Origin: a virus
Reading direction: 5' to 3' (one strand)
IMG/VR virus record: IMGVR_UViG_3300042804_000010
Length of the DNA: 36,614 bases
The notes below the pieces were generated by a model, which saw only the letters and a program-made list of their open reading frames with translations, did no database searches and was not told where the DNA came from. A program made the translations under genes and the position numbers. The stretch's first letter is position 1. Each line of letters starts with the position of its first letter. Shown here in pieces: positions 1-36,614 of this stretch.

Positions 1-127
1 ATATAACCTTGTTTAACCCACTGGTCATAAGGAATTTTATCTTCTCTGGAACGCTGCTCTAATAAATCTTCTGGCAGCCAATACATAGATAAACAATATA
101 TTGTCGGATCATCTGGAAGCATAAAAA
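1..127. repeat. 127-bp terminal direct repeat identical to 36488-36614 (circularisation overlap of the contig)
   Basis: Direct comparison: window start atataaccttgtttaacccactgg...tggaagcataaaaa reappears at the window end, and the terL reading frame is continuous across it. Confidence 0.9.
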
Positions 128-1403
128 GAACACTACTTGCAGTTAAATCAGTAGTGCTGGATAAGTCAGTTCCTCCGATGCCATAACGGGGATTTAGCTC
201 CCCAACATCAAAGTTTGCTGTATTATTCAATTCTTCAAAGTTTAACCATGCTTCAGAAGATGTTTCTCTGATATTAAAATCTTTAGTTAATAAGTTTTTA
301 ACTAATAAAGGATTATTTTGTGCTTTATGAACCTTAGTTTCTAAGTTGTCGGTTTTCTTAATAGTACCAAGCCCTGGATTAGCTTTTCTCCAGTTTTTTC
401 TGTCAGTCCATTCGGACCTTTTGTCTAACTCATAAATAATTGGTAAAAATCTTTCGTCTTTATAACCTTCTGGATCATCAAATCCATTAATAATCATTTC
501 TGCTTCATCATACTTTAGGTCGTAAACTTGCTCTCTAACAGTCCCAGCAGTTGTGATCATAAATATTAAAGGTTGTTCTCTTGCTGATGTACCGTCTTTG
601 ATAACATCGTAAAGGTTCTTGTCTTTCCATGCGTGTATCTCATCAAGAGAGGCTCCATGCACATTGAGCCCGTCTAATCTATCGCTGTCAGACCCGAGAG
701 GCACAAAAGTTGAATCATTATGTCGGCCCTTTAATTCTTTAACCAAAGGTTTAATGCTTTTCAGTAAGAATGGTGATTTTTTAACCATTTTCTTAGCTTC
801 TGACCATACTATTTTGGCCTGTTTTTCTTTTGTAGCAACCGCATATATTTCGGCCCCTGGTTCATTATCGGCAACTTGAAGATATAAAGAAATCGCCGAT
901 GAAAGAGTTGATTTTCCATTCTTTCTGGCAACGACTAATAATACTTCTCTATATTTTCTTGTTCTGTTAGTTTTATGAATAAACCCAAAAATAGCTGCTA
1001 TAAAAGCCTTCTGCCAGAGTTCTAATTTAAGCGCCTGGCCTCCCCATTTACCTTTTGATTGTTTGCAAAAATTTTCTATAAACTCAATTGCATGATTAGC
1101 GTGGCCGGCACTATACTCCCACTGGCTTTGATCGTCATGAACATCAGCTACAAGTTTTTTATAAACTTTTTTAACTTTTTTGCAGGCTATTATTTCGCCA
1201 GATTGAATTTTATTATTATATTCAATGATTGGATTATAACTCAAAGGATATCTTATATAATTACTGTTGTTTTTCTTAGTTTTTTCTTTTGTTTTTTTAG
1301 GGTGCTGCCAACATCTCCACTCATTTGGTGGATTATCATTAAATTCTTTTTCTCTGCTGCATCTGCTGCCATCGTTTTTAGTTCCTGAGCATCTAACTAT
1401 CAT
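1..1403 (-). CDS. terL: Terminase large subunit, N-terminal (5') portion; gene continues at 36061-36614 across the circular junction (about 609 aa in total)
   Basis: Manual minus-strand translation from ATG 1403..1401 (2 nt after terS stop) gives MIVRCSGTKNDGSRCS...IEYNNKIQSGEIIACKKV...VVARKNGKST (Walker A-like)...LDEIHAW and runs in frame into MLPDDPTIYCLSMYW, the start of the 36061..36609 track ORF. Absent from the ORF track because it has no stop inside the window. Confidence 0.85.
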   Translation of the reverse strand, partial: MIVRCSGTKNDGSRCSREKEFNDNPPNEWRCWQHPKKTKEKTKKNNSNYIRYPLSYNPIIEYNNKIQSGEIIACKKVKKVYKKLVADVHDDQSQWEYSAGHANHAIEFIENFCKQSKGKWGGQALKLELWQKAFIAAIFGFIHKTNRTRKYREVLLVVARKNGKSTLSSAISLYLQVADNEPGAEIYAVATKEKQAKIVWSEAKKMVKKSPFLLKSIKPLVKELKGRHNDSTFVPLGSDSDRLDGLNVHGASLDEIHAWKDKNLYDVIKDGTSAREQPLIFMITTAGTVREQVYDLKYDEAEMIINGFDDPEGYKDERFLPIIYELDKRSEWTDRKNWRKANPGLGTIKKTDNLETKVHKAQNNPLLVKNLLTKDFNIRETSSEAWLNFEELNNTANFDVGELNPRYGIGGTDLSSTTDLTASSVLFMLPDDPTIYCLSMYWLPEDLLEQRSREDKIPYDQWVKQGY

Positions 1404-1405
1404 CT

Positions 1406-1795
1406 TTAATCAGGCCTCGATGCTTCAAACTTTTCTATAATATTTTCGGGATTAGTAACTTCTTCTTTTGGCAACAAGTCAAGCAATTGCTTCATAACAG
1501 CATTATGTCTATTAACTAATGAAATATAGGTGCTTGCTTCTGGAGATTGTTTAGTACCCCATTGGTTTTCTCCATTCTGATACTTTGATACAACTCCATT
1601 AGCATTGATTTCATCCTGCAAGTCCTGGAGAGTTATGGCCATAAATGCTGCATTTGCAATTAATGACTTTGCTATATCCATTCTCTGGCTATCTATATCT
1701 AAATCTTCTAAAATTGCTCTTAATCTTTCTTTTTCTTCTTTAACTCGCCTATCTTTTTCTAAAAACTCGTTATTTTTAGCTGCTGTATTTGACAT
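1406..1795 (-). CDS. terS: Terminase small subunit (P27-family-like)
   Basis: Track ORF 1406..1870 starts at GTG with no RBS; ATG at 1795 is preceded by GAGGGGGGTG. Product MSNTAAKNNEFLEKDRR...NAVMKQLLDLLP resembles P27-type small terminase; sits immediately upstream of terL. Confidence 0.7.
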   Translation of the reverse strand: MSNTAAKNNEFLEKDRRVKEEKERLRAILEDLDIDSQRMDIAKSLIANAAFMAITLQDLQDEINANGVVSKYQNGENQWGTKQSPEASTYISLVNRHNAVMKQLLDLLPKEEVTNPENIIEKFEASRPD

Positions 1796-1890
1796 TTTAT
1801 ACCACACCCCCCTCGTGAGCTTGATATGTATTAATTGTGTATCCCCTCTCGGTCCCCTGGCAGCCACCACCCCGATAAAAACAGGGGGGG
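1796..1890. other. GC-rich island between HNH endonuclease and terS; candidate cos/packaging site
   Basis: C6 tract at 1807-1812 and G7 tract at 1884-1890, with cccctctcggtcccctggcagccaccacccc between, in an otherwise AT-rich genome; HNH-cos-terS is the usual arrangement in HK97-like cos phages. Confidence 0.4.
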
Positions 1891-2205
1891 CTACCTTTCA
1901 ACCAGCTCTCCATGCTTATTAAACTTCAAACCTTGTCTAACTACCTCCGCACTTGCTCCTACTCCATGTTCCTCGTTATGACAGTCTAAGCACAGGTATT
2001 CTAAGTTATCAAAGTTAAGAGTAATCTCTGGATCATTAATGTTGTCAGGAGTTAAGTATTCAATGTGATGAACTATTTTGCCTGGATTAACCTTGCCATT
2101 CTCCAAGCATCTTTCACACAATCCGTTTACTTCAGCAATATAAGCCTCTCTGCACTCCTGCCATTCTTTACTCTTATAAAAACTTTTAGCCCATTCCTTT
2201 GCCAT
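1891..2205 (-). CDS. HNH endonuclease (terminase-associated)
   Basis: 104-aa ORF with CERC...HHIEYL...N...LCLDCHNEEH, an HNH motif with zinc-binding Cys pairs; directly upstream of terS. Confidence 0.8.
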   Translation of the reverse strand: MAKEWAKSFYKSKEWQECREAYIAEVNGLCERCLENGKVNPGKIVHHIEYLTPDNINDPEITLNFDNLEYLCLDCHNEEHGVGASAEVVRQGLKFNKHGELVER

Positions 2206-2380: not shown

Positions 2381-2610
2381 CAAATCACCTCTGGCAAATA
2401 TGTAATATAAACCGGCTGGGCTGGCCGGCAGCAGTATATTATAAAAGAGGTATCCAACAGACGCCCACAACGATTTCTGTAATTATTAGTTTTTGGCATA
2501 GAAAAACCCAGCTCGTCTGGTAACAAGCCGGGCAAAACAATAAAGGAGGAAAGTTATTGAAAAAACTTATACTTTCCATGATATTAATATATCATCTTTT
2601 AAAGCCTTAA

Positions 2611-2640
2611 ATGTTTACTAATTGTTTACTAACTGTTTAT
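2611..2640. repeat. Tandem 11-bp repeat (tgtttactaaN x about 2.7)
   Basis: atgtttactaa ttgtttactaa ctgtttat read directly at 2611-2640, abutting the stop of the 2637..3113 gene. Confidence 0.6.
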
Positions 2641-3113
2641 TTTTTTGCATATCCGAGAATTCTTGCTATTTTCTCTATTGCCTGGTCCTTAAAATCATAA
2701 TATTTGTTTCTTCCCCACTCGAATTTTGGGTGAGTATATATGTTCACATCTTTCTCGAATCTTCCTGTCATATACTTTTTTTCCACTACAAATCTTTCTA
2801 TCGTGTCTAGCGCCTTTAGAGCTTCTTCAATTTTTGCTATCATGCACTCTTTACTTCTTAATTCTTCTTTGAGTTCACTTTCATCTCGATTAATTACTGC
2901 ATTTTCTGTAGCTGATCTAAAATCATTGCTGCCTTTAACGTTTACTCCTTCATAACTTACCCCTCGATTTGACTCAATTAATTCGTCTAATTCTATTCTG
3001 ATTACGGCACATCGCTGTTTATATTCTTTGTAGTTAAGCAGCTCCTTAATTACTCTTGAATAATAATCCTGCATCCAATCACCCTTTTTGTTGAAATAGT
3101 TTAGCGAACTCAT
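2637..3113 (-). CDS. Hypothetical protein; position suggests a late-gene transcriptional activator (ArpU/RinA-like), unverified
   Basis: 158-aa ORF, last gene of the early block immediately upstream of the Zn-ribbon/HNH/terS/terL packaging block; assignment is positional only. Confidence 0.3.
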   Translation of the reverse strand: MSSLNYFNKKGDWMQDYYSRVIKELLNYKEYKQRCAVIRIELDELIESNRGVSYEGVNVKGSNDFRSATENAVINRDESELKEELRSKECMIAKIEEALKALDTIERFVVEKKYMTGRFEKDVNIYTHPKFEWGRNKYYDFKDQAIEKIARILGYAKK

Positions 3114-4368: not shown

Positions 4369-4764
4369 CTATTCTAATTTTTCAAGCCACTCAATTGCAT
4401 CATCAGCTCCGAAAGCAATTTTAGTTTGCCAGTTTCTCCATTCTAAAGCTTTTAACCATTCTTTTTGCGATTCTCTAACATCTGACGGTTTTCCATTAGC
4501 TTTTTTTAATTCGATTGCTATTCCACTAAAGTTCATAGTATATTCAGAAGTTGGATCATCAAATATCAGTACATCAGGCACGCCCGGCTTAACTCCCTGC
4601 ATTTTCATTTTCCTGCCGGTCTTAGCATCTCTGTTTCCTCCATTAGGTACATGGCACCACAAATAGCCTTTCATATCCAAATAATTTGCTAACTTAACTT
4701 GCTCATCATATTCTGATAGATCCTTCTTTTTTCTATATTCTGCAGCACTCATTCTCTCTGTCAT
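4369..4764 (-). CDS. VRR-NUC domain nuclease (PD-(D/E)xK superfamily)
   Basis: 131-aa ORF with LANYLDMKGYLWCHVPNGG...PGVPDVLIFD...GIAIELKK...QKEWLKAL, the VRR-NUC pattern; RBS GAGGTGA. Confidence 0.65.
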   Translation of the reverse strand: MTERMSAAEYRKKKDLSEYDEQVKLANYLDMKGYLWCHVPNGGNRDAKTGRKMKMQGVKPGVPDVLIFDDPTSEYTMNFSGIAIELKKANGKPSDVRESQKEWLKALEWRNWQTKIAFGADDAIEWLEKLE

Positions 4765-4789
4765 TATTTCACCTCAAATTACCGGGCCA

Positions 4790-5623
4790 TCACGGATAAA
4801 CAATAGCCTCGACATGATATTTTTTCTTAAATGATTTCCAGCCCATCTGATGAGCTTTATTGTGATATTCAGCTGATAAACATATTTTCTTTAGATTGCT
4901 ATCATCTAACTTTTGTCTGTTTTGCCCCATTCCTATTGCATCAGCATGATGAATATGAACTATTTCACCTGAATTGTCTATATAATAGTTTTTGCCTGGC
5001 TTAGTACTGACAGCACATATTTTCTTATCCAGGCACATTCTTAGCCATCTATCCAGACTGTCTAATCTCTTCCTGGGGTTTTCTTTCCACTCTACTCCCA
5101 GCTCATAACCTAGCCTTATCGCAAAATCTATAAAATCAATTGCTGCTTTCTTAGAACAATCGGATAAACTTATTCTTCCATGCTCAGAGACCTCAGCAAA
5201 CCTCATAACCAGAGCCTCTTTCATTTCTTCCTTTTCATACCCTATTGAGTTACCCATATCTTCAATGACAGCAAATGCTTTATTTCTCTGACTGTTAGTT
5301 ATCATATTCATTAACCTTTGCTGCTCTTTTTTATTTATTTCAAACTTTACTCTGATTTCTTCCATCTCTTTGAATTTTGGTCCAACATTAATCAAAATCC
5401 TTTTACTGTCTTTCCCAGTTATCAATATAACTTCATGATCTCCATTAGCCAACTGTTCTATATTTTTGATTTTAGCTGAGGCCAGGGCCATCTGATTGAA
5501 GTTCACAATTAATGGTTTATCTTCAAATTTATCAAATCCATCTGGTATATCTTTTATGATCAGGCTTACTACTCCTGAGTTTTTTCTAGTCTTCCATTTT
5601 TTTAAGCTGCATCTAAATATCAT
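4790..5623 (-). CDS. Hypothetical early protein with C-terminal His-rich (HNH-like?) motif
   Basis: Track ORF 4790..5644; ATG at 5623 is preceded by GAAGGAGG; C-terminus has IVHIHHADAIG...EYHNKAH. Function unresolved. Confidence 0.45.
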   Translation of the reverse strand: MIFRCSLKKWKTRKNSGVVSLIIKDIPDGFDKFEDKPLIVNFNQMALASAKIKNIEQLANGDHEVILITGKDSKRILINVGPKFKEMEEIRVKFEINKKEQQRLMNMITNSQRNKAFAVIEDMGNSIGYEKEEMKEALVMRFAEVSEHGRISLSDCSKKAAIDFIDFAIRLGYELGVEWKENPRKRLDSLDRWLRMCLDKKICAVSTKPGKNYYIDNSGEIVHIHHADAIGMGQNRQKLDDSNLKKICLSAEYHNKAHQMGWKSFKKKYHVEAIVYP

Positions 5624-5777
5624 TTCTGCCTCCTTCAACATCAAAATTAAATTTTACTTCATCATCTTTATTTTCTACAAATACATAGATATGATTTGTA
5701 TATTCACAAATACAACAACCTTCTTCTGGATCACAATATGGATTTGGGCAAGGTATTCTTTTCTTGATTTTGCTCAT
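5613..5777 (-). CDS. Small Cys-rich protein (54 aa), not in ORF track
   Basis: Manual translation MSKIKKRIPCPNPYCDPEEGCCICEYTNH...; RBS AGAGGGTGA upstream of ATG 5777; stop overlaps the start of the next gene. Confidence 0.45.
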   Translation of the reverse strand: MSKIKKRIPCPNPYCDPEEGCCICEYTNHIYVFVENKDDEVKFNFDVEGGRNDI

Positions 5778-18237: not shown

Positions 18238-19332
18238 CTATATGCTTTTTAATTTTAGCCGGTCGCCTAAATCCAATTGCTCCAGTATATGATCATCTAG
18301 TTTGTTTATCACTGACATTTTTAAATTATAACTATCGCAATGTTTAATTATTCCCAAGTAGGAATTAACACTGGCATTAATATCCTCGATATCCACCTTC
18401 CCTTCAAAATATTTTTTATTAAGATATTTAAATCGCTTTTTCATTTTCTTTTTAGTACTTTTCCTCAATTTGCTATAACTCGGATATAGAACATATCCGC
18501 AAAAATCTATTCCTTCATTCACATGTCCAACAGTAGTTTTATTATTAAGCTGCAGCTGGAGATAATCTTCTAAAAATATTTCTATTTCCTGTCTGATTGT
18601 ATGAAGCTTCTTTTTATCTTTTCCCAAAAGTACAAAGTCATCCATATACCGGACATAGTATTTTACTTTCAAGGTGTGCTTTACAAACTTATCTAAAAAA
18701 TCAAGATAAATATTTGCAAAAAGCTGGCTCATTAAGTTGCCGATTGGTGTGCCAATCCCTTTAACTTTTTTATTTTCAAAGAAGTGATCACCTAACTGGA
18801 TACCAAACTCACCATCTTCACTTTTGATTATCTGCCAGATTAATTCCAATGTATCTCTGCAGCTAATTTTCCTTTTTATTAACTGAAATAATCTTTTATG
18901 AACTATCCTGTAAAAATATTTTGAAACGTCTGCTTTTAAAAAATATGTTTTTCCGGGCTTTCGGTCCATTATCCTTAACTTGTCCTGTAATTGATATGCA
19001 GTGAAATGAGTACCCTTTCCTCTGCGACAAGCCCCGCTATATCTGTAAAATGCCTTATCAAATATCGGGTAAAGCTTTCGATATATGCTCCACTGGACCA
19101 CTCTGTCTTTAAAAGGCAAAGCCATGATCAGTCTTTTCTTTGGCTCATAGACATAAAACTGCCTGTATTTTCCCTGTTCATATGTTTTCCACATTAATTC
19201 ATTCTGTATCTCAATTAAATTTCTCTCTAAATTATAATTAAATTTCAGCACTTCCGGTTTGTATCTTTTCCTCTTTTGAGCTTTTTGAGTTGCTATTTCT
19301 AAATTATGATAATCAGTAATTTTCTCAAACAA
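18238..19332 (-). CDS. Diversity-generating retroelement reverse transcriptase
   Basis: RT motifs FYVYEPKKRLIMALPFKDRVVQ, GTHFTAY, IGTPIGNLMSQLFANIYL (DGR-type SQ in place of the usual QGxxxSP), YVRYMDDFVLLG (YxDD); about 360 aa, as for Bordetella phage Brt; apparent TTG start at 19332. Confidence 0.9.
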   Translation of the reverse strand: MFEKITDYHNLEIATQKAQKRKRYKPEVLKFNYNLERNLIEIQNELMWKTYEQGKYRQFYVYEPKKRLIMALPFKDRVVQWSIYRKLYPIFDKAFYRYSGACRRGKGTHFTAYQLQDKLRIMDRKPGKTYFLKADVSKYFYRIVHKRLFQLIKRKISCRDTLELIWQIIKSEDGEFGIQLGDHFFENKKVKGIGTPIGNLMSQLFANIYLDFLDKFVKHTLKVKYYVRYMDDFVLLGKDKKKLHTIRQEIEIFLEDYLQLQLNNKTTVGHVNEGIDFCGYVLYPSYSKLRKSTKKKMKKRFKYLNKKYFEGKVDIEDINASVNSYLGIIKHCDSYNLKMSVINKLDDHILEQLDLGDRLKLKSI

Positions 19333-19586
19333 ATTTTTGACTGTCTTAGGAATAAATAATCACCACTCTCTATATATTAGGTGAAATATTCAAGCCCGCT
19401 CAAATGAGAACGGGCTCATAACTAATCGTGACAGCTTTCGATATTTCGCTACTTGCTATCTAATTAGTAATTCATATGTTTTCCTGGAGGGACCTCAAAA
19501 TGTATCTCAGGAAGGACTAAAGGCCTGTTCATCTTTTTGAACACTGCAGCAGAGGCCTTGACCCCATACTGTCTGATAAATTTGTA

Positions 19587-19703
19587 GATGAGCACAGGCG
19601 CCACGCACGCCAATGTTAGTGTTCACGTTCCACGGGTTATTGTTCGAGTTGACCGTCCGAGCACCGCAGATGCTACCATTGTTGAAGTTGCCACCGGCGA
19701 GGA
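19587..19703 (-). repeat. DGR template repeat (TR), 117 bp
   Basis: 102 of 117 positions identical to VR (20143-20259); all 15 differences are at TR adenines on the coding strand; carries 11 AAY codons in the VR frame. Confidence 0.9.
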
Positions 19704-19727
19704 CCAACGCCCTTAGCCCTATAAAAT

Positions 19728-20081
19728 TTATTTTTTATTTTCACAAGACTTAATCCAGCCACCCAGAAGGCGGCCAATTTCGTCTATTTTTTTGACTACA
19801 ATTTCATGTTTTCTTATAGATAAAAAATGCATATCTTTAGCAAGTCTAATTTTAACTTTTAGCTTTTTAAGTTCATCATCTATCCGGTTTAAAAATCTTA
19901 TCTTACTTCCTCGAGCTTCATTTGCATCTATTATCAATTCCATAATTCTATCTAATTTATTTTTGATTTTTGTACACATTGCAAACTTTTCTCTTTTTGG
20001 AAAATTATCAATTACTGGGTAAAAATAAAGAGTAAAGTCATAATGTTTTCTAAATATCACGAGATCATCTGTGTCTGCCAA
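19728..20081 (-). CDS. avd: DGR accessory variability determinant (Avd)
   Basis: 117-aa basic helical protein located between the target gene and TR, as in canonical DGRs; TTG start preceded by AAGGAG with a 7-nt spacer. Confidence 0.75.
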   Translation of the reverse strand: MADTDDLVIFRKHYDFTLYFYPVIDNFPKREKFAMCTKIKNKLDRIMELIIDANEARGSKIRFLNRIDDELKKLKVKIRLAKDMHFLSIRKHEIVVKKIDEIGRLLGGWIKSCENKK

Positions 20082-20131
20082 ATCATCACTCCTTCAAGTT
20101 CTAAACCTAACCAAAAACCATTATCAGATTA

Positions 20132-21169
20132 TCAGGCACTCTGATGAGCACAGGCGCCACGCACGCCAACGCTAGTGTTCACGTCCCACGGGCGAAAGTC
20201 CGAGCTGACCGTCCGAGCACCGCAGAGGCCACCACTGCTGAAGCCGCCACCGGCGAGGAGGCCAATAATAGCCACATTATTTTGCATGTAAGCTTCACCA
20301 TGCTGATAACCGCTGTCTTTACCTGCATTAAGCACATCATACCAACTGAATGAAGTTGAGCCAGTATTTCTATAAGTATACTCGTCTAATCTTTCCCAAA
20401 GGTTACCAGCGCAATCTACAAGGTTATAGCAAGAAACTGCTTGTTCTACAGTTCCAGTTGAAGTTCGACCTGAATTACTTGAACTAGACCAAGCGGCATT
20501 ATTATCATTTTCGTGGCCTTCTGGGCTACCATAGGCAGCCATTAACCATTCCTGCCTGGTTAATTTTCTTTTGTTGACATTTGCAAGACCCCTAATGAAA
20601 TCATAATCATTATAACCCTCAGTTCCTGAGACCGGGGTCGCATTGTATTCACTCACAAGTTCAGTTTCCGGCCAGGTTCCGCTGCCTTCACTTGCAATAT
20701 ATATATCAGCCCAAAAGTTTGATACCTTGACCATTCCAGTAGGGTCACAGGCAGGTCTGTAGTTCAATGACCAGACTGAGTTTGGCAGTATATTAACTGC
20801 AATTGAGGCTGTATCATCATATCTTTGAGCGTTTGTTCTGATGCGGCCATAATGAAAACCACCAATTTTTCTGCTATTATTTTCTGTATACCCGTCTGGA
20901 TAAGTAGAGTTGATAGAAATAACAAAATCGGGCTCTGCATCAGCTGATGGCTGCAAAGCATATATATAATAGTTTTCGCCAAGCGTGAAACTTACAAAAC
21001 TGCCGTCGCTATCAGCTTCAGTCAAAATAGTATCAGTTTCTTTTTTGAGATTCTGTCTATCAATTCTCAAAGCTAATGGAGGTACTGTAACTTCATCAGC
21101 TGCACTCTTTTCAATATGGCCTTTGAAATTGTAGAATGAAGGTGAATCAGCTCCAACAAAAGTTAACAT
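20132..21169 (-). CDS. DGR target protein: distal tail/receptor-binding protein with C-terminal C-type-lectin/FGE-like fold carrying the VR
   Basis: C-terminal ...SCYNLVDCAGNLWERLDEY...LLAGGGFSSGGLCGARTVSSDFRPWDVNTSVGVRGACAHQSA; VR occupies the last about 39 codons; last gene of the tail module. Confidence 0.85.
   Translation of the reverse strand: MLTFVGADSPSFYNFKGHIEKSAADEVTVPPLALRIDRQNLKKETDTILTEADSDGSFVSFTLGENYYIYALQPSADAEPDFVISINSTYPDGYTENNSRKIGGFHYGRIRTNAQRYDDTASIAVNILPNSVWSLNYRPACDPTGMVKVSNFWADIYIASEGSGTWPETELVSEYNATPVSGTEGYNDYDFIRGLANVNKRKLTRQEWLMAAYGSPEGHENDNNAAWSSSSNSGRTSTGTVEQAVSCYNLVDCAGNLWERLDEYTYRNTGSTSFSWYDVLNAGKDSGYQHGEAYMQNNVAIIGLLAGGGFSSGGLCGARTVSSDFRPWDVNTSVGVRGACAHQSA
20143..20259 (-). 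repeat. DGR variable repeat (VR), 117 bp, at the 3' end of the target gene
   Basis: Aligns to TR 19587-19703; the coding-strand 3' end is a GC-rich invariant segment ggcgtgcgtggcgcctgtgctcatc (IMH-like). Confidence 0.9.
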
Positions 21170-36060: not shown

Positions 36061-36614
36061 CTAAATCATGTTTTCATACTCTTGCATTTTGTCTTGGAGT
36101 ATCACATAAGCATTAAGCATTGCAGCTGTACCATCAATTCTTTTTCTTTGATTACGCTGCTTTGCGGGTTGTATATTAAGATTTTTATCTATATCAACTG
36201 AGGTATTACTCAAACACCATTTAGTTATTGGATTGTTGTCATAATTAATTTTATGAGCTTTTAAATCAGCCCCCAGTTGTTTCATTGGTCCTGATAATGT
36301 TTTTTTACCCTGGATAACTGGAATCATTGCTTCTTTACCAAAATGACCTTGCATTTCCTCAACCCAGTAATTAGCACTCCAGGAGTCATAACCAATCCAG
36401 GGAATATAAATATCTAATTCATTTTGGACCTCTAAATACCACCGAGTAACAAATTTCGGATGCACTTTGTTGCCTGGAGTGGTTCTCATATAACCTTGTT
36501 TAACCCACTGGTCATAAGGAATTTTATCTTCTCTGGAACGCTGCTCTAATAAATCTTCTGGCAGCCAATACATAGATAAACAATATATTGTCGGATCATC
36601 TGGAAGCATAAAAA
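36061..36614 (-). CDS. terL: Terminase large subunit, C-terminal (nuclease) portion; 5' part is at 1-1403
   Basis: Track ORF 36061..36609 is in frame with the manually translated ORF ending at window position 1; 36488-36614 duplicates 1-127. Confidence 0.85.
   Translation of the reverse strand, partial: FMLPDDPTIYCLSMYWLPEDLLEQRSREDKIPYDQWVKQGYMRTTPGNKVHPKFVTRWYLEVQNELDIYIPWIGYDSWSANYWVEEMQGHFGKEAMIPVIQGKKTLSGPMKQLGADLKAHKINYDNNPITKWCLSNTSVDIDKNLNIQPAKQRNQRKRIDGTAAMLNAYVILQDKMQEYENMI

What the first reader, a model, noticed from the sequence alone, without database searches (positions are those of the whole stretch)
1796..1890. GC-rich island between the HNH endonuclease and terS is a candidate cos site
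A 95-bp stretch with a C6 tract (1807-1812), a G7 tract (1884-1890) and several CCCC/GGGG runs interrupts an AT-rich genome exactly where HK97-like cos phages place cos, between the terminase-associated HNH gene and terS.
Basis: partly seen in the sequence, partly recalled or inferred. Interest (0 to 1): 0.55.

Follow-up and report, generated by a model that had tools for sequence, protein, structure and literature searches.

The report
HK97-type cos site of a Halanaerobium phage
The GC-rich stretch between the HNH nuclease gene and the small terminase gene is almost certainly this phage's cos site, where replicated DNA is cut into genome-length pieces for packaging; it is an ordinary member of the well-studied HK97-type class.

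Summary
Observation confirmed; interpretation supported. Window 1796-1890 is the whole HNH-terS intergenic spacer (genes on the minus strand). It is 54% GC in a 35% GC genome and holds the window's two longest G/C homopolymers.

The spacer contains, once and exactly, the 14-mer GGACCGAGAGGGGA (1842-1855). This is the published 3' cos overhang of Bacillus phage B13, the closest characterised relative (TerL 74% identical), and it sits at the same syntenic position.

The island fits a three-part layout:
- C5-7 tract, then 28-30 nt
- GACCG, then a variable ~8 nt
- about 30 nt, then GGGGGTGTRGT, then terS

This layout is shared by about 45 distinct viral contigs and by 42 of 53 independent Bacillota genome loci. 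The tract-spacer-core-overhang part is also present in E. coli HK97 and a Paenibacillus larvae phage, both with published 3' overhangs that start right after xAC^CG.

Metagenome contigs of relatives end at these positions. Fourteen of 39 left-truncated contigs start 27-33 nt before the G motif. Six of seven right-end contigs stop 30-33 nt after the C tract. The 10-11 nt gap between them is what a trimmed 3' overhang would leave.

Predicted ends: right end ...GAC (1852), overhang CGAGAGGGGA (1851-1842; 14 nt if B13-like), left end starting at T1841. No reads from this phage were available, so the exact nick positions are inferred. New member of a known kind; modest interest.

The parts
1891..2205 (-). 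Terminase-associated HNH endonuclease gene; the stop codon TAG (1893..1891) abuts the C7 tract.
   Evidence: PF01844 E=3.4e-8. phrog_119 E=6e-25. PDB 5H0M HNH endonuclease E=6.5e-12. Weak similarity to HK97 gp74, E=1e-5.
1884..1890 (-). It is a conserved upstream flanking element lying 29 nt before GACCG. A cosQ-like positioning or termination role is inferred.
   Evidence: Spacing to GACCG is 28-30 nt in 43 of 45 distinct relatives and in 43 of 43 validation loci that have the element. HK97 has a G9 tract at 29 nt. In close relatives, homology resumes exactly at this tract even where the upstream gene differs.
1855..1883 (-). 29-nt spacer between the C tract and the core. Its sequence is variable but its length is constrained.
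1850..1854 (-). GACCG, the near-invariant core of the cleavage site. One nick is predicted at GAC^CG, on the window + strand between 1851 and 1852.
   Evidence: Near-invariant in the alignment. GACCG in 40 of 43 validation loci. HK97 reads GAC|CGCCGCCAAA and P. larvae Lilo reads AAC|CGACTGCCC, both with published overhangs. Right-end contigs of relatives stop right after xAC.
1842..1851 (-). Predicted 10-nt 3' cohesive overhang CGAGAGGGGA (HK97-type geometry).
   Evidence: In relatives there is a 10-11 nt gap between right-end contigs (...GAC|) and left-end contigs. Contig L009 (TerS 92% identical) starts at window 1842.
1842..1855 (-). 14-mer GGACCGAGAGGGGA, identical to the annotated 3' cos overhang of Bacillus phage B13. 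This gives an alternative 14-nt overhang.
   Evidence: Single exact match in the window; 0.05 expected even when 2 mismatches are allowed. B13 misc_feature 1..14. PMC9610010. Athena carries the same 14-mer.
1813..1841 (-). First 29 nt of the predicted left genome end (TACACAATTAAT...). This is the likely small-terminase binding region, by analogy with HK97 positions +15..+29.
   Evidence: HK97 TerS minimal site from PMC11331095. Semi-conserved TTCAAAAAAYACACAGGTC block in relatives. 0 variable columns across nine close relatives over 1810-1839.
1801..1812 (-). This is the conserved downstream element GGGGGTGTRGT. It is a candidate cosB-like TerS site and here probably also serves as the terS Shine-Dalgarno sequence.
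   Evidence: Unique in the window. Present in about 45 relatives and 42 of 53 validation loci, many of which have a separate SD further downstream. Replaced by a C-rich element in the TerS subfamily of Athena, CBP1 and PhiSepi-HH1.
1406..1795 (-). Small terminase gene (129 aa, ATG at 1795).
   Evidence: 47% identical to B13 TerS, E=1e-35. phrog_1066 and phrog_5110. Pfam Terminase_4 E=0.0038, below the cut-off.
1..1403 (-). Large terminase gene, N-terminal 467 codons. It continues across the circular junction.
   Evidence: PF03354 E=4e-32 and PF20441 E=4e-21. The joined ORF is 609 aa. 74% identical to B13 and Athena TerL. 27% identical to HK97 gp2, E=6e-50.
36061..36487 (-). Large terminase gene, C-terminal part. 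Positions 36488-36614 repeat 1-127.

Best explanation
Window 1801-1890 (read on the minus, coding strand) is the cos region of a temperate, HK97-like siphovirus of Halanaerobium.

Layout, in order:
- HNH stop codon
- C7 tract (1890..1884)
- 29-nt spacer
- GAC^CG core (1854..1850)
- overhang CGAGAGGGGA (1851..1842)
- cut on the coding strand between 1842 and 1841
- 29 nt of left-end DNA
- GGGGGGTGTGGT (1812..1801)
- terS ATG (1795)

Proposed mechanism:
1. On concatemeric DNA, the small terminase binds the terS-proximal side of the cut, that is the left-end region and the G-rich motif.
2. It positions the large terminase, whose nuclease acts with help from the adjacent HNH protein.
3. Two staggered nicks are made. 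This leaves 3' cohesive ends of about 10 nt, or possibly 14 nt as reported for phage B13.
4. Packaging starts at the terS side, runs through the 36.5-kb genome, and ends at the next cos.
5. At that next cos, the C tract at its fixed 29-bp distance probably helps position the terminating cut.

What is shown: sequence identity to a determined cos overhang, the conserved architecture, and contig ends in relatives. What is inferred: the exact nick positions in this phage, which protein reads which element, and the direction of packaging.
For: 1. Module identity. The gene order is HNH, TerS, TerL, portal, protease, HK97-fold capsid. TerL is homologous to HK97 gp2 over its full length.

2. Match to B13. 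The island has an exact, unique 14/14 match to the B13 3' cos overhang at the syntenic place. The C7 tract and GGGGGTGTGGT lie at nearly the same spacings: 29/42 nt in the window against 30/43 nt in B13. The B13 ends were determined by PhageTerm and a HindIII annealed-end fragment.

3. Same geometry in other determined cos sites.
- HK97 reads G9 +29 nt + GAC|CGCCGCCAAA|GTTTG, with a 10-nt 3' overhang.
- P. larvae phage Lilo reads C7 +31 nt + AAC|CGACTGCCC|, with the published overhang CGACTGCCC.

4. Contig ends in relatives.
- 14 of 39 left-truncated IMG/VR contigs start 27-33 nt before the G motif (binomial P about 4e-24).
- Contigs from three samples (L026, L027, L029) start at the identical base, and contigs from two samples (L088, L090) end at the identical base.
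- 6 of 7 right-end contigs stop 30-33 nt after the C tract, and 5 of them end in ...GAC.
- Contig L009 (TerS 92% identical) starts at window 1842. Contig L003 (TerS 100% identical) starts at 1857.

5. Conservation.
- 1810-1869 is the least variable stretch among nine close relatives, with 2 variable columns in 60. It is less variable than the terS coding sequence.
- The three-part signature appears in 42 of 53 independent genome loci and in 0 of 53 on the opposite strand.

6. The downstream element tracks the TerS subfamily rather than TerL. This fits its proposed role as the TerS site.
Against: - No sequencing reads or virion DNA of this phage were examined, so fixed ends are inferred, not observed.
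- The window assembled as a circle with a 127-nt terminal repeat. This is compatible with cos (annealed ends or replicative forms) but does not itself show ends.
- The two close-relative contig starts (1842 and 1857) differ by 15 nt.
- The B13 PhageTerm overhang (14 nt) differs by 4 nt from the HK97-type 10-nt prediction, so the position of one nick is uncertain by about 4 nt.
- The TerS here has no detectable sequence similarity to HK97 gp1 (E=0.19), so transferring the HK97 TerS-site location is by analogy only.
- Contig ends can also arise from assembly breaks at low-complexity G/C tracts. Identical ends in separate samples and the constant offset argue against that.
Confidence: 0.9

Rival explanations
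1. The island is only an expression signal. On this view it is a hairpin terminator or attenuator after HNH plus a strong G-rich ribosome-binding site for terS, with no role in DNA cutting.
For: GGGGGGTG lies 9 nt before the terS ATG and no other SD is present. The minimum-free-energy fold pairs the C7 tract with GGGGUGG.
Against: - No terminator-like site is found in the island, because no T-run follows the hairpin.
- The fold is no better than shuffles (z=-0.69).
- There is no Rfam hit.
- RNAalifold on 25 relatives finds only an invariant C-tract:G-tract pairing with no covariation, at -3.7 kcal/mol.
- Many relatives keep GGGGGTGTRGT and also carry their own SD 15-30 nt further on.
- The exact B13 overhang and the contig ends remain unexplained by this reading.
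- An SD role for the G tract is compatible with, and not an alternative to, the cos reading.
Confidence: 0.04
2. The phage packages by a headful (pac) mechanism, and the island is at most a pac recognition site without precise, repeated cuts.
For: The contig assembled as a circle, as circularly permuted genomes do. One relative's GenBank note speaks of a 'circularly permutated genome' (TPDSL_ph2), but the same note also refers to joined cohesive ends.
Against: - TerL is 74% identical to that of a phage with demonstrated 3' cos ends, and it is homologous to HK97 gp2.
- An HNH gene next to terS is the hallmark of HK97-type cos systems (Kala et al. 2014, as summarised in PMC13595911).
- Contigs from different samples end at identical bases. 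This is not expected for headful ends.
Confidence: 0.03
3. It is a cos site, but the cut geometry is the 14-nt overhang reported for B13 (GG^GGACCGAGAGGGGA^T). One nick would then lie 4 nt further from terS, between 1855 and 1856, rather than at GAC^CG.
For: B13, Athena and the window share the identical 17-mer AGGGGACCGAGAGGGGA. PhageTerm on B13 gave 14 nt. Contig L003 starts at 1857, two bases outside the 14-mer.
Against: HK97 (10 nt) and P. larvae phages (9 nt) have overhangs starting directly after xAC. Five right-end contigs of relatives end in ...GAC. The left/right gap in relatives is 10-11 nt. None of these data come from the B13/window subgroup itself.
Confidence: 0.3

Closest known systems
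Bacillus phage B13 cos site (Bunatrivirus; OP066531.2; PMC9610010)
   Same: - Identical 14-mer GGACCGAGAGGGGA at the same place.
- C7 tract 29-30 nt upstream and GGGGGTGTGGT 29-30 nt downstream, directly before terS.
- TerL 74% and TerS 47% identical.
- 3' cos determined by PhageTerm and restriction analysis.
   Different: - B13 has an extra 131-aa ORF between HNH and the C tract; in the window the HNH stop codon abuts the tract.
- B13 has a separate SD for terS.
- Different host (Bacillus cereus against Halanaerobium), and the genomes are otherwise unrelated at the DNA level.
Escherichia phage HK97 cos (10-nt 3' overhang; gp74 HNH, gp1 TerS, gp2 TerL)
   Same: - Position between HNH and terS.
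- Homopolymer tract, then 29 nt, then GAC^CG, then 8 more nt, then the cut.
- Homologous TerL (27% identical, E=6e-50).
- The TerS site lies on the terS side of the cut (+15..+29; PMC11331095).
   Different: - The HK97 tract is G9 on the strand where the window has C7.
- HK97 lacks GGGGGTGTRGT and has only AAGGTGTTG, which acts as its SD.
- Its TerS is not detectably similar in sequence (E=0.19).
- HK97 has a 319-nt spacer after the HNH gene.
Paenibacillus larvae cos phages (Harrisonvirus and relatives; overhang CGACTGCCC, PMC4611677)
   Same: C7 tract, then about 31 nt, then AAC^CG. The published 9-nt 3' overhang begins with CG. A G6 tract lies about 35 nt into the left end, before terS. The HNH gene is at the right genome end.
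   Different: The core is AACCG rather than GACCG. The overhang is 9 nt. TerL is only 34% identical.
Phage lambda cos (cosQ-cosN-cosB)
   Same: The functional logic is the same: a cut site flanked by an upstream element needed at termination and a downstream small-terminase binding region next to the terS gene.
   Different: Lambda makes 12-nt 5' overhangs, uses the gpA/Nu1 terminase families and IHF, and has no HNH partner. The window's TerL is not a GpA-family protein (E=0.003, below the cut-off).

Membership tests
HK97-type 3' cos site (HNH-assisted terminase) | Lies between the terminase-associated HNH gene and terS on the circular map | tested here: met
   HNH at 2205..1891, terS at 1795..1406, terL immediately downstream.
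HK97-type 3' cos site (HNH-assisted terminase) | Large terminase of the HK97 gp2 type | tested here: met
   PF03354 and PF20441. 27% identity over 493 aa to HK97 gp2, E=6e-50. 74% identical to the TerL of 3'-cos phage B13.
HK97-type 3' cos site (HNH-assisted terminase) | Cleavage-site sequence geometry of members with determined ends: homopolymer tract, 28-31 nt, xAC^CG, then a 7-8 nt remainder of the overhang | tested here: met
   Window: C7 + 29 nt + GACCG + AGAGGGGA. The same geometry is present in HK97, B13 and P. larvae Lilo.
HK97-type 3' cos site (HNH-assisted terminase) | Virion DNA has fixed ends with complementary 3' single-stranded extensions | not testable with these tools
   No reads or virion DNA were available. 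Indirect evidence: exact identity to the B13 overhang, relatives' contig ends with a 10-11 nt gap, and close-relative contig starts at 1842 and 1857.
HK97-type 3' cos site (HNH-assisted terminase) | Small terminase binds specifically just downstream of the cut | not testable with these tools
   Only correlative evidence. The conserved downstream element changes with the TerS subfamily. HK97 precedent at +15..+29. TerS is not sequence-similar to HK97 gp1.
Lambda-type 5' cos site | GpA-family large terminase and Nu1-type small terminase | tested here: not met
   GpA_ATPase scores only E=0.0029, 17.7 bits against a cut-off of 25.6. There is no Nu1 hit.
Intrinsic transcription terminator | GC-rich hairpin followed by a T-run | tested here: not met
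   No terminator-like site between 1796 and 1890. The nearest are at 2533..2506 and 2429..2411.
Known structured RNA (Rfam) | Match to a covariance model, or covariation-supported structure | tested here: not met
   No Rfam match overlaps the island even at E<=10. Fold z=-0.69. No covariation in 25 relatives.

The most novel reading that the evidence does not exclude
The fixed-distance flanking elements may be general functional parts of HK97-type cos sites that have not yet been formally described. These are a C (or G) homopolymer tract 28-30 bp before xAC^CG, and GGGGGTGTRGT about 30 bp after the cut. They appear across Bacillota phages and in part in E. coli HK97.

On this reading the upstream tract would be a cosQ-like element read by the conserved TerL/HNH nuclease pair. 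The downstream motif would be a TerS site that switches with the TerS subfamily. If so, a simple sequence signature would predict exact genome ends and overhangs for thousands of uncultured HNH-terminase phages without any read data.
Probability: 0.35. Interest if true: 0.5.

Novelty: new member of a known kind. Interest (0 to 1): 0.3.

Why it matters
For this phage, the result fixes the genome's natural start and end, the direction of packaging, and the likely cohesive-end sequence. That is useful for annotation, for judging completeness, and for designing a cos-based test in Halanaerobium.

More generally, the comparison shows that the cut-site geometry of HK97 recurs with tight spacing in many Bacillota phages. 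It also shows that the ends of ordinary metagenome contigs carry usable terminus information. That could give a read-free way to call cos ends in this large phage group, and it points to two flanking elements worth testing biochemically. As a single locus it is an expected feature of a well-understood packaging system.

Tried and rejected
- A 14-base exact scan of viral contigs with GGGGTGGTGGCTGC was too unspecific.
- A specific right-flank pattern in metagenome contigs found only 3 contigs, all reading through the site. No right-end contig of a close relative was obtained.
- Exact-protein look-ups of HNH and TerS returned mostly contigs that read through cos. The only contig end was L309, which is the same contig as L003.
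- Structured RNA, riboswitch or leader: rejected, with no Rfam hit, a non-significant fold and no covariation.
- Terminator: rejected.
- Long-range C7:G6 pairing as a functional stem (7-nt inverted repeat): unsupported. The pairing is invariant rather than covarying, and in Athena, CBP1, PhiSepi-HH1 and TPDSL_ph2 both elements are C-rich on the same strand.
- The 154-aa GTG-initiated ORF (1870..1406) that would bury cos inside terS: rejected. Relatives and B13 align only from residue ~12 of the 129-aa form, and the upstream part is not kept as an ORF in relatives.
- PDB sequence search with TerS found nothing.
- Literature searches for the motif sequence found no description. This is not proof of novelty, because Kala 2014 and Quiles-Puchalt 2014 were not held.

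Full report
**What the window is.** The 36,614-nt window has identical first and last 127 nt. It is therefore a circularly closed assembly of a 36,487-bp genome.

- Almost all genes run on the minus strand.
- Around the finding the order on that strand is: a late-activator-like gene (3113..2637), two small ORFs, HNH (2205..1891), the 95-nt spacer, terS (1795..1406) and terL (1403..1, continuing at 36487..36061; 609 aa).
- Portal, prohead protease and HK97-fold capsid genes follow.
- The phage is temperate, with a tyrosine integrase and an S24 repressor.
- An identical TerS is encoded on a 37-kb contig of Halanaerobium saccharolyticum MA284_T2, which names the likely host.

- The 95 nt are 53.7% GC against 35.2% overall, the 99.3rd percentile.
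- They hold the two longest G/C homopolymers of the window.
- They hold 5 of the window's 68 runs of four or more G or C.
- The interval is exactly the HNH-terS intergenic spacer.

**The key match.** By TerL, the closest characterised phage is Bacillus phage B13 (74% identity).

- Its GenBank record annotates bases 1-14, GGACCGAGAGGGGA, as the '3'-cos overhang sequence'.
- The paper reports that PhageTerm predicted this overhang. A HindIII digest then showed the annealed left-plus-right end fragment (PMC9610010).
- The window contains this 14-mer exactly once, at 1842-1855 on the minus strand. Only 0.05 matches are expected, even when two mismatches are allowed.
- The surroundings agree as well. 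Both phages have a C7 tract 29-30 nt upstream and GGGGGTGTGGT 29-30 nt downstream, just before terS.

**A conserved architecture.** I fetched relatives of TerS and HNH from IMG/VR and anchored them on the core. About 45 distinct sequences share the same layout:

- a C5-7 tract, then 28-30 nt (29 nt in 26 of 45);
- GACCG (sometimes TACCG), then a variable, purine-rich ~8 nt;
- about 30 nt with a loose TTCAAAAAAYACACAGGTC block;
- GGGGGTGTRGT, then terS.

As an independent check I applied the pattern to 53 terS loci from bacterial genomes that played no part in defining it.

- 42 loci carry the full signature, and none carries it on the opposite strand.
- Hosts range from Halanaerobium and Bacillus to Clostridium, Paenibacillus, Agathobaculum and Flavonifractor.
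- In the window the full signature occurs once, and in 0 of 100 shuffles.

**Link to phages with determined ends.**

- HK97's record ends ...G9 + 29 nt + GAC CGCCGCCAAA and starts GTTTGAATTT.... HK97 has 10-nt 3' overhangs (PMC9410871, PMC11331095). Its overhang is therefore the 10 nt directly after GAC.
- Paenibacillus larvae phage Lilo ends ...C7 + 31 nt + AAC CGACTGCCC. CGACTGCCC is the published 3' overhang of this phage group, and those genomes are set to begin right after it (PMC4611677).
- The geometry 'tract, about 29 nt, xAC^CG, 7-8 more nt, cut' therefore holds in three systems studied independently.

**Contig ends as a stand-in for terminus mapping.**

- Among the 39 terS-bearing contigs that are cut short on the upstream side, 14 begin 27-33 nt before the G motif and lack the GACCG core. 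A uniform model gives P about 4e-24.
- Contigs from three different samples (L026, L027, L029) begin at the identical base. Contigs from two samples (L088, L090) end at the identical base.
- Left ends, mapped onto intact near-identical relatives, fall 12-14 nt after the G of GACCG.
- Six of the seven contigs that stop shortly after HNH end 30-33 nt after the C tract (mode 32), and five end in ...GAC.
- Right and left ends are thus separated by 10-11 nt. That is what a 3' overhang trimmed during library end-repair would leave. A filled-in 5' overhang would instead give an overlap.
- For the window's own lineage, L009 (TerS 92% identical) starts at window 1842 and L003 (TerS 100% identical) starts at 1857.

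**Prediction for the window (minus strand).** The sequence reads ...GCCAGGGGAC^CGAGAGGGGA^TACACAATT...

- The right genome end stops at C1852.
- The 3' overhang is CGAGAGGGGA (1851..1842).
- The left end starts at T1841.
- If the B13 PhageTerm value applies, the overhang is 14 nt (1855..1842). I rate 10-11 nt as somewhat more likely than 14 nt, but the data that favour 10 nt come from more distant relatives.

**What the flanking tracts do (inference).**

- *Conservation in close relatives.* Across nine close relatives, 1810-1869 is the least variable stretch of an 860-nt alignment. Homology begins exactly at the C tract, even where a different gene precedes it.
- *The downstream motif.* It is not just a ribosome-binding site, because many relatives keep it and also have their own SD further on.
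  - Athena, CBP1, PhiSepi-HH1 and TPDSL_ph2 have the same C tract (Athena also the same 14-mer) but a C-rich element (GACCCCCCTACCCC) in place of GGGGGTGTRGT.
  - The TerS proteins of Athena, CBP1 and PhiSepi-HH1 form a separate subfamily, 45-52% identical to each other and 32% to the window's.
  - Athena's TerL is as close to the window's as B13's is.
  - This co-variation, together with the HK97 precedent of a TerS site at +15..+29, makes the downstream region the likely TerS site.
- *The upstream tract and core.* The upstream tract and GACCG are shared even with HK97. HK97's TerS is not detectably similar to the window's, whereas its TerL clearly is and its HNH weakly is. These elements are therefore more likely read by the nuclease pair. 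The role would resemble that of lambda's cosQ (lambda comparison from established knowledge).

**Rivals.**

- There is no Rfam match overlapping the island, no terminator-like site in it, a fold no better than shuffles (z=-0.69), and no covariation among 25 relatives.
- Headful packaging is disfavoured by the TerL lineage, by the HNH partner and by identical contig ends across samples.
- The circular assembly is compatible with cos and does not discriminate.

**Verdict.** This is an HK97-type cos site, and the G and C tracts are conserved flanking elements rather than incidental GC richness. It is a new member of a known kind.

The wider conservation of the signature may be of some use for read-free terminus prediction.

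Noticed in passing
window 18238-21169 (TR 19587-19703; VR 20143-20259): The phage carries a diversity-generating retroelement. Its parts are an Mtd-like target protein (21169..20132, PF21916), a reverse transcriptase (19332..18238, PF00078), and a 117-nt template/variable repeat pair at 87% identity. The variable repeat is the most GC-rich 95 nt of the window (68%).
   Followed up: partly
window 1-127 and 36488-36614: There is an exact 127-nt terminal direct repeat, so the window is a circularly closed assembly of a 36,487-bp genome. The junction falls inside terL.
   Followed up: yes
L310 (NZ_SNWX01000032.1, 37,047 nt): A whole-genome shotgun contig of Halanaerobium saccharolyticum strain MA284_T2 encodes a 100% identical TerS with the same cos region. 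This gives a probable host and an inducible source for experiments.
   Followed up: partly
L164 (Athena), L165 (CBP1), L166 (PhiSepi-HH1), L167 (TPDSL_ph2): These phages keep the C tract and GACCG core (Athena also the identical 14-mer) but replace GGGGGTGTRGT with a C-rich element, GACCCCCCTACCCC. The TerS proteins of the first three form a distinct subfamily. This looks like a natural swap of the TerS site.
   Followed up: partly
L004, L005, L006, L010 versus window 1884-2205: Some otherwise near-identical relatives have an extra, unrelated small ORF between HNH and cos, as do B13 and Athena. Sequence homology to the window resumes exactly at the C tract, which marks a mosaic boundary.
   Followed up: partly
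L162/L163 (Lactobacillus phage iA2, KR905068.1): The record ends exactly at the HNH stop codon. The signature (C6 + 29 nt + GAACG) lies inside the 3' end of that HNH gene, 24 nt before the record end. The deposited ends may therefore be set by gene boundaries rather than by the physical cos ends.
   Followed up: no
L003 start (= window 1857); L034 start: Two contigs begin upstream of the expected trimmed left end. L003 includes the whole 14-mer plus GG. L034 begins with 7 unmatched bases followed by the predicted overhang. They may come from library methods that keep 3' tails or from junction reads; this is unexplained.
   Followed up: no
window 2506-2533 and 2637-3113: A candidate late-gene transcriptional activator (phrog_36/phrog_248) is followed by a strong terminator-like hairpin (12 pairs plus a T-run) just upstream of the HNH cluster. 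This may be an anti-termination or late-operon control point.
   Followed up: no
window 4369-5644: A second HNH-type nuclease (PF16784 HNHc_6, 5644..4790) and a VRR-NUC nuclease (4764..4369) lie in the replication/recombination region. They are distinct from the terminase-associated HNH.
   Followed up: no
window 1843-1873 (minus strand): Three GGGG runs bracket the cut site (GGGG-N12-GGGG-ACCGAGA-GGGG), and G-rich overhangs are common in relatives. Whether non-B DNA plays a part, as proposed for herpesvirus pac signals (PMC13595911), was not examined.
   Followed up: no
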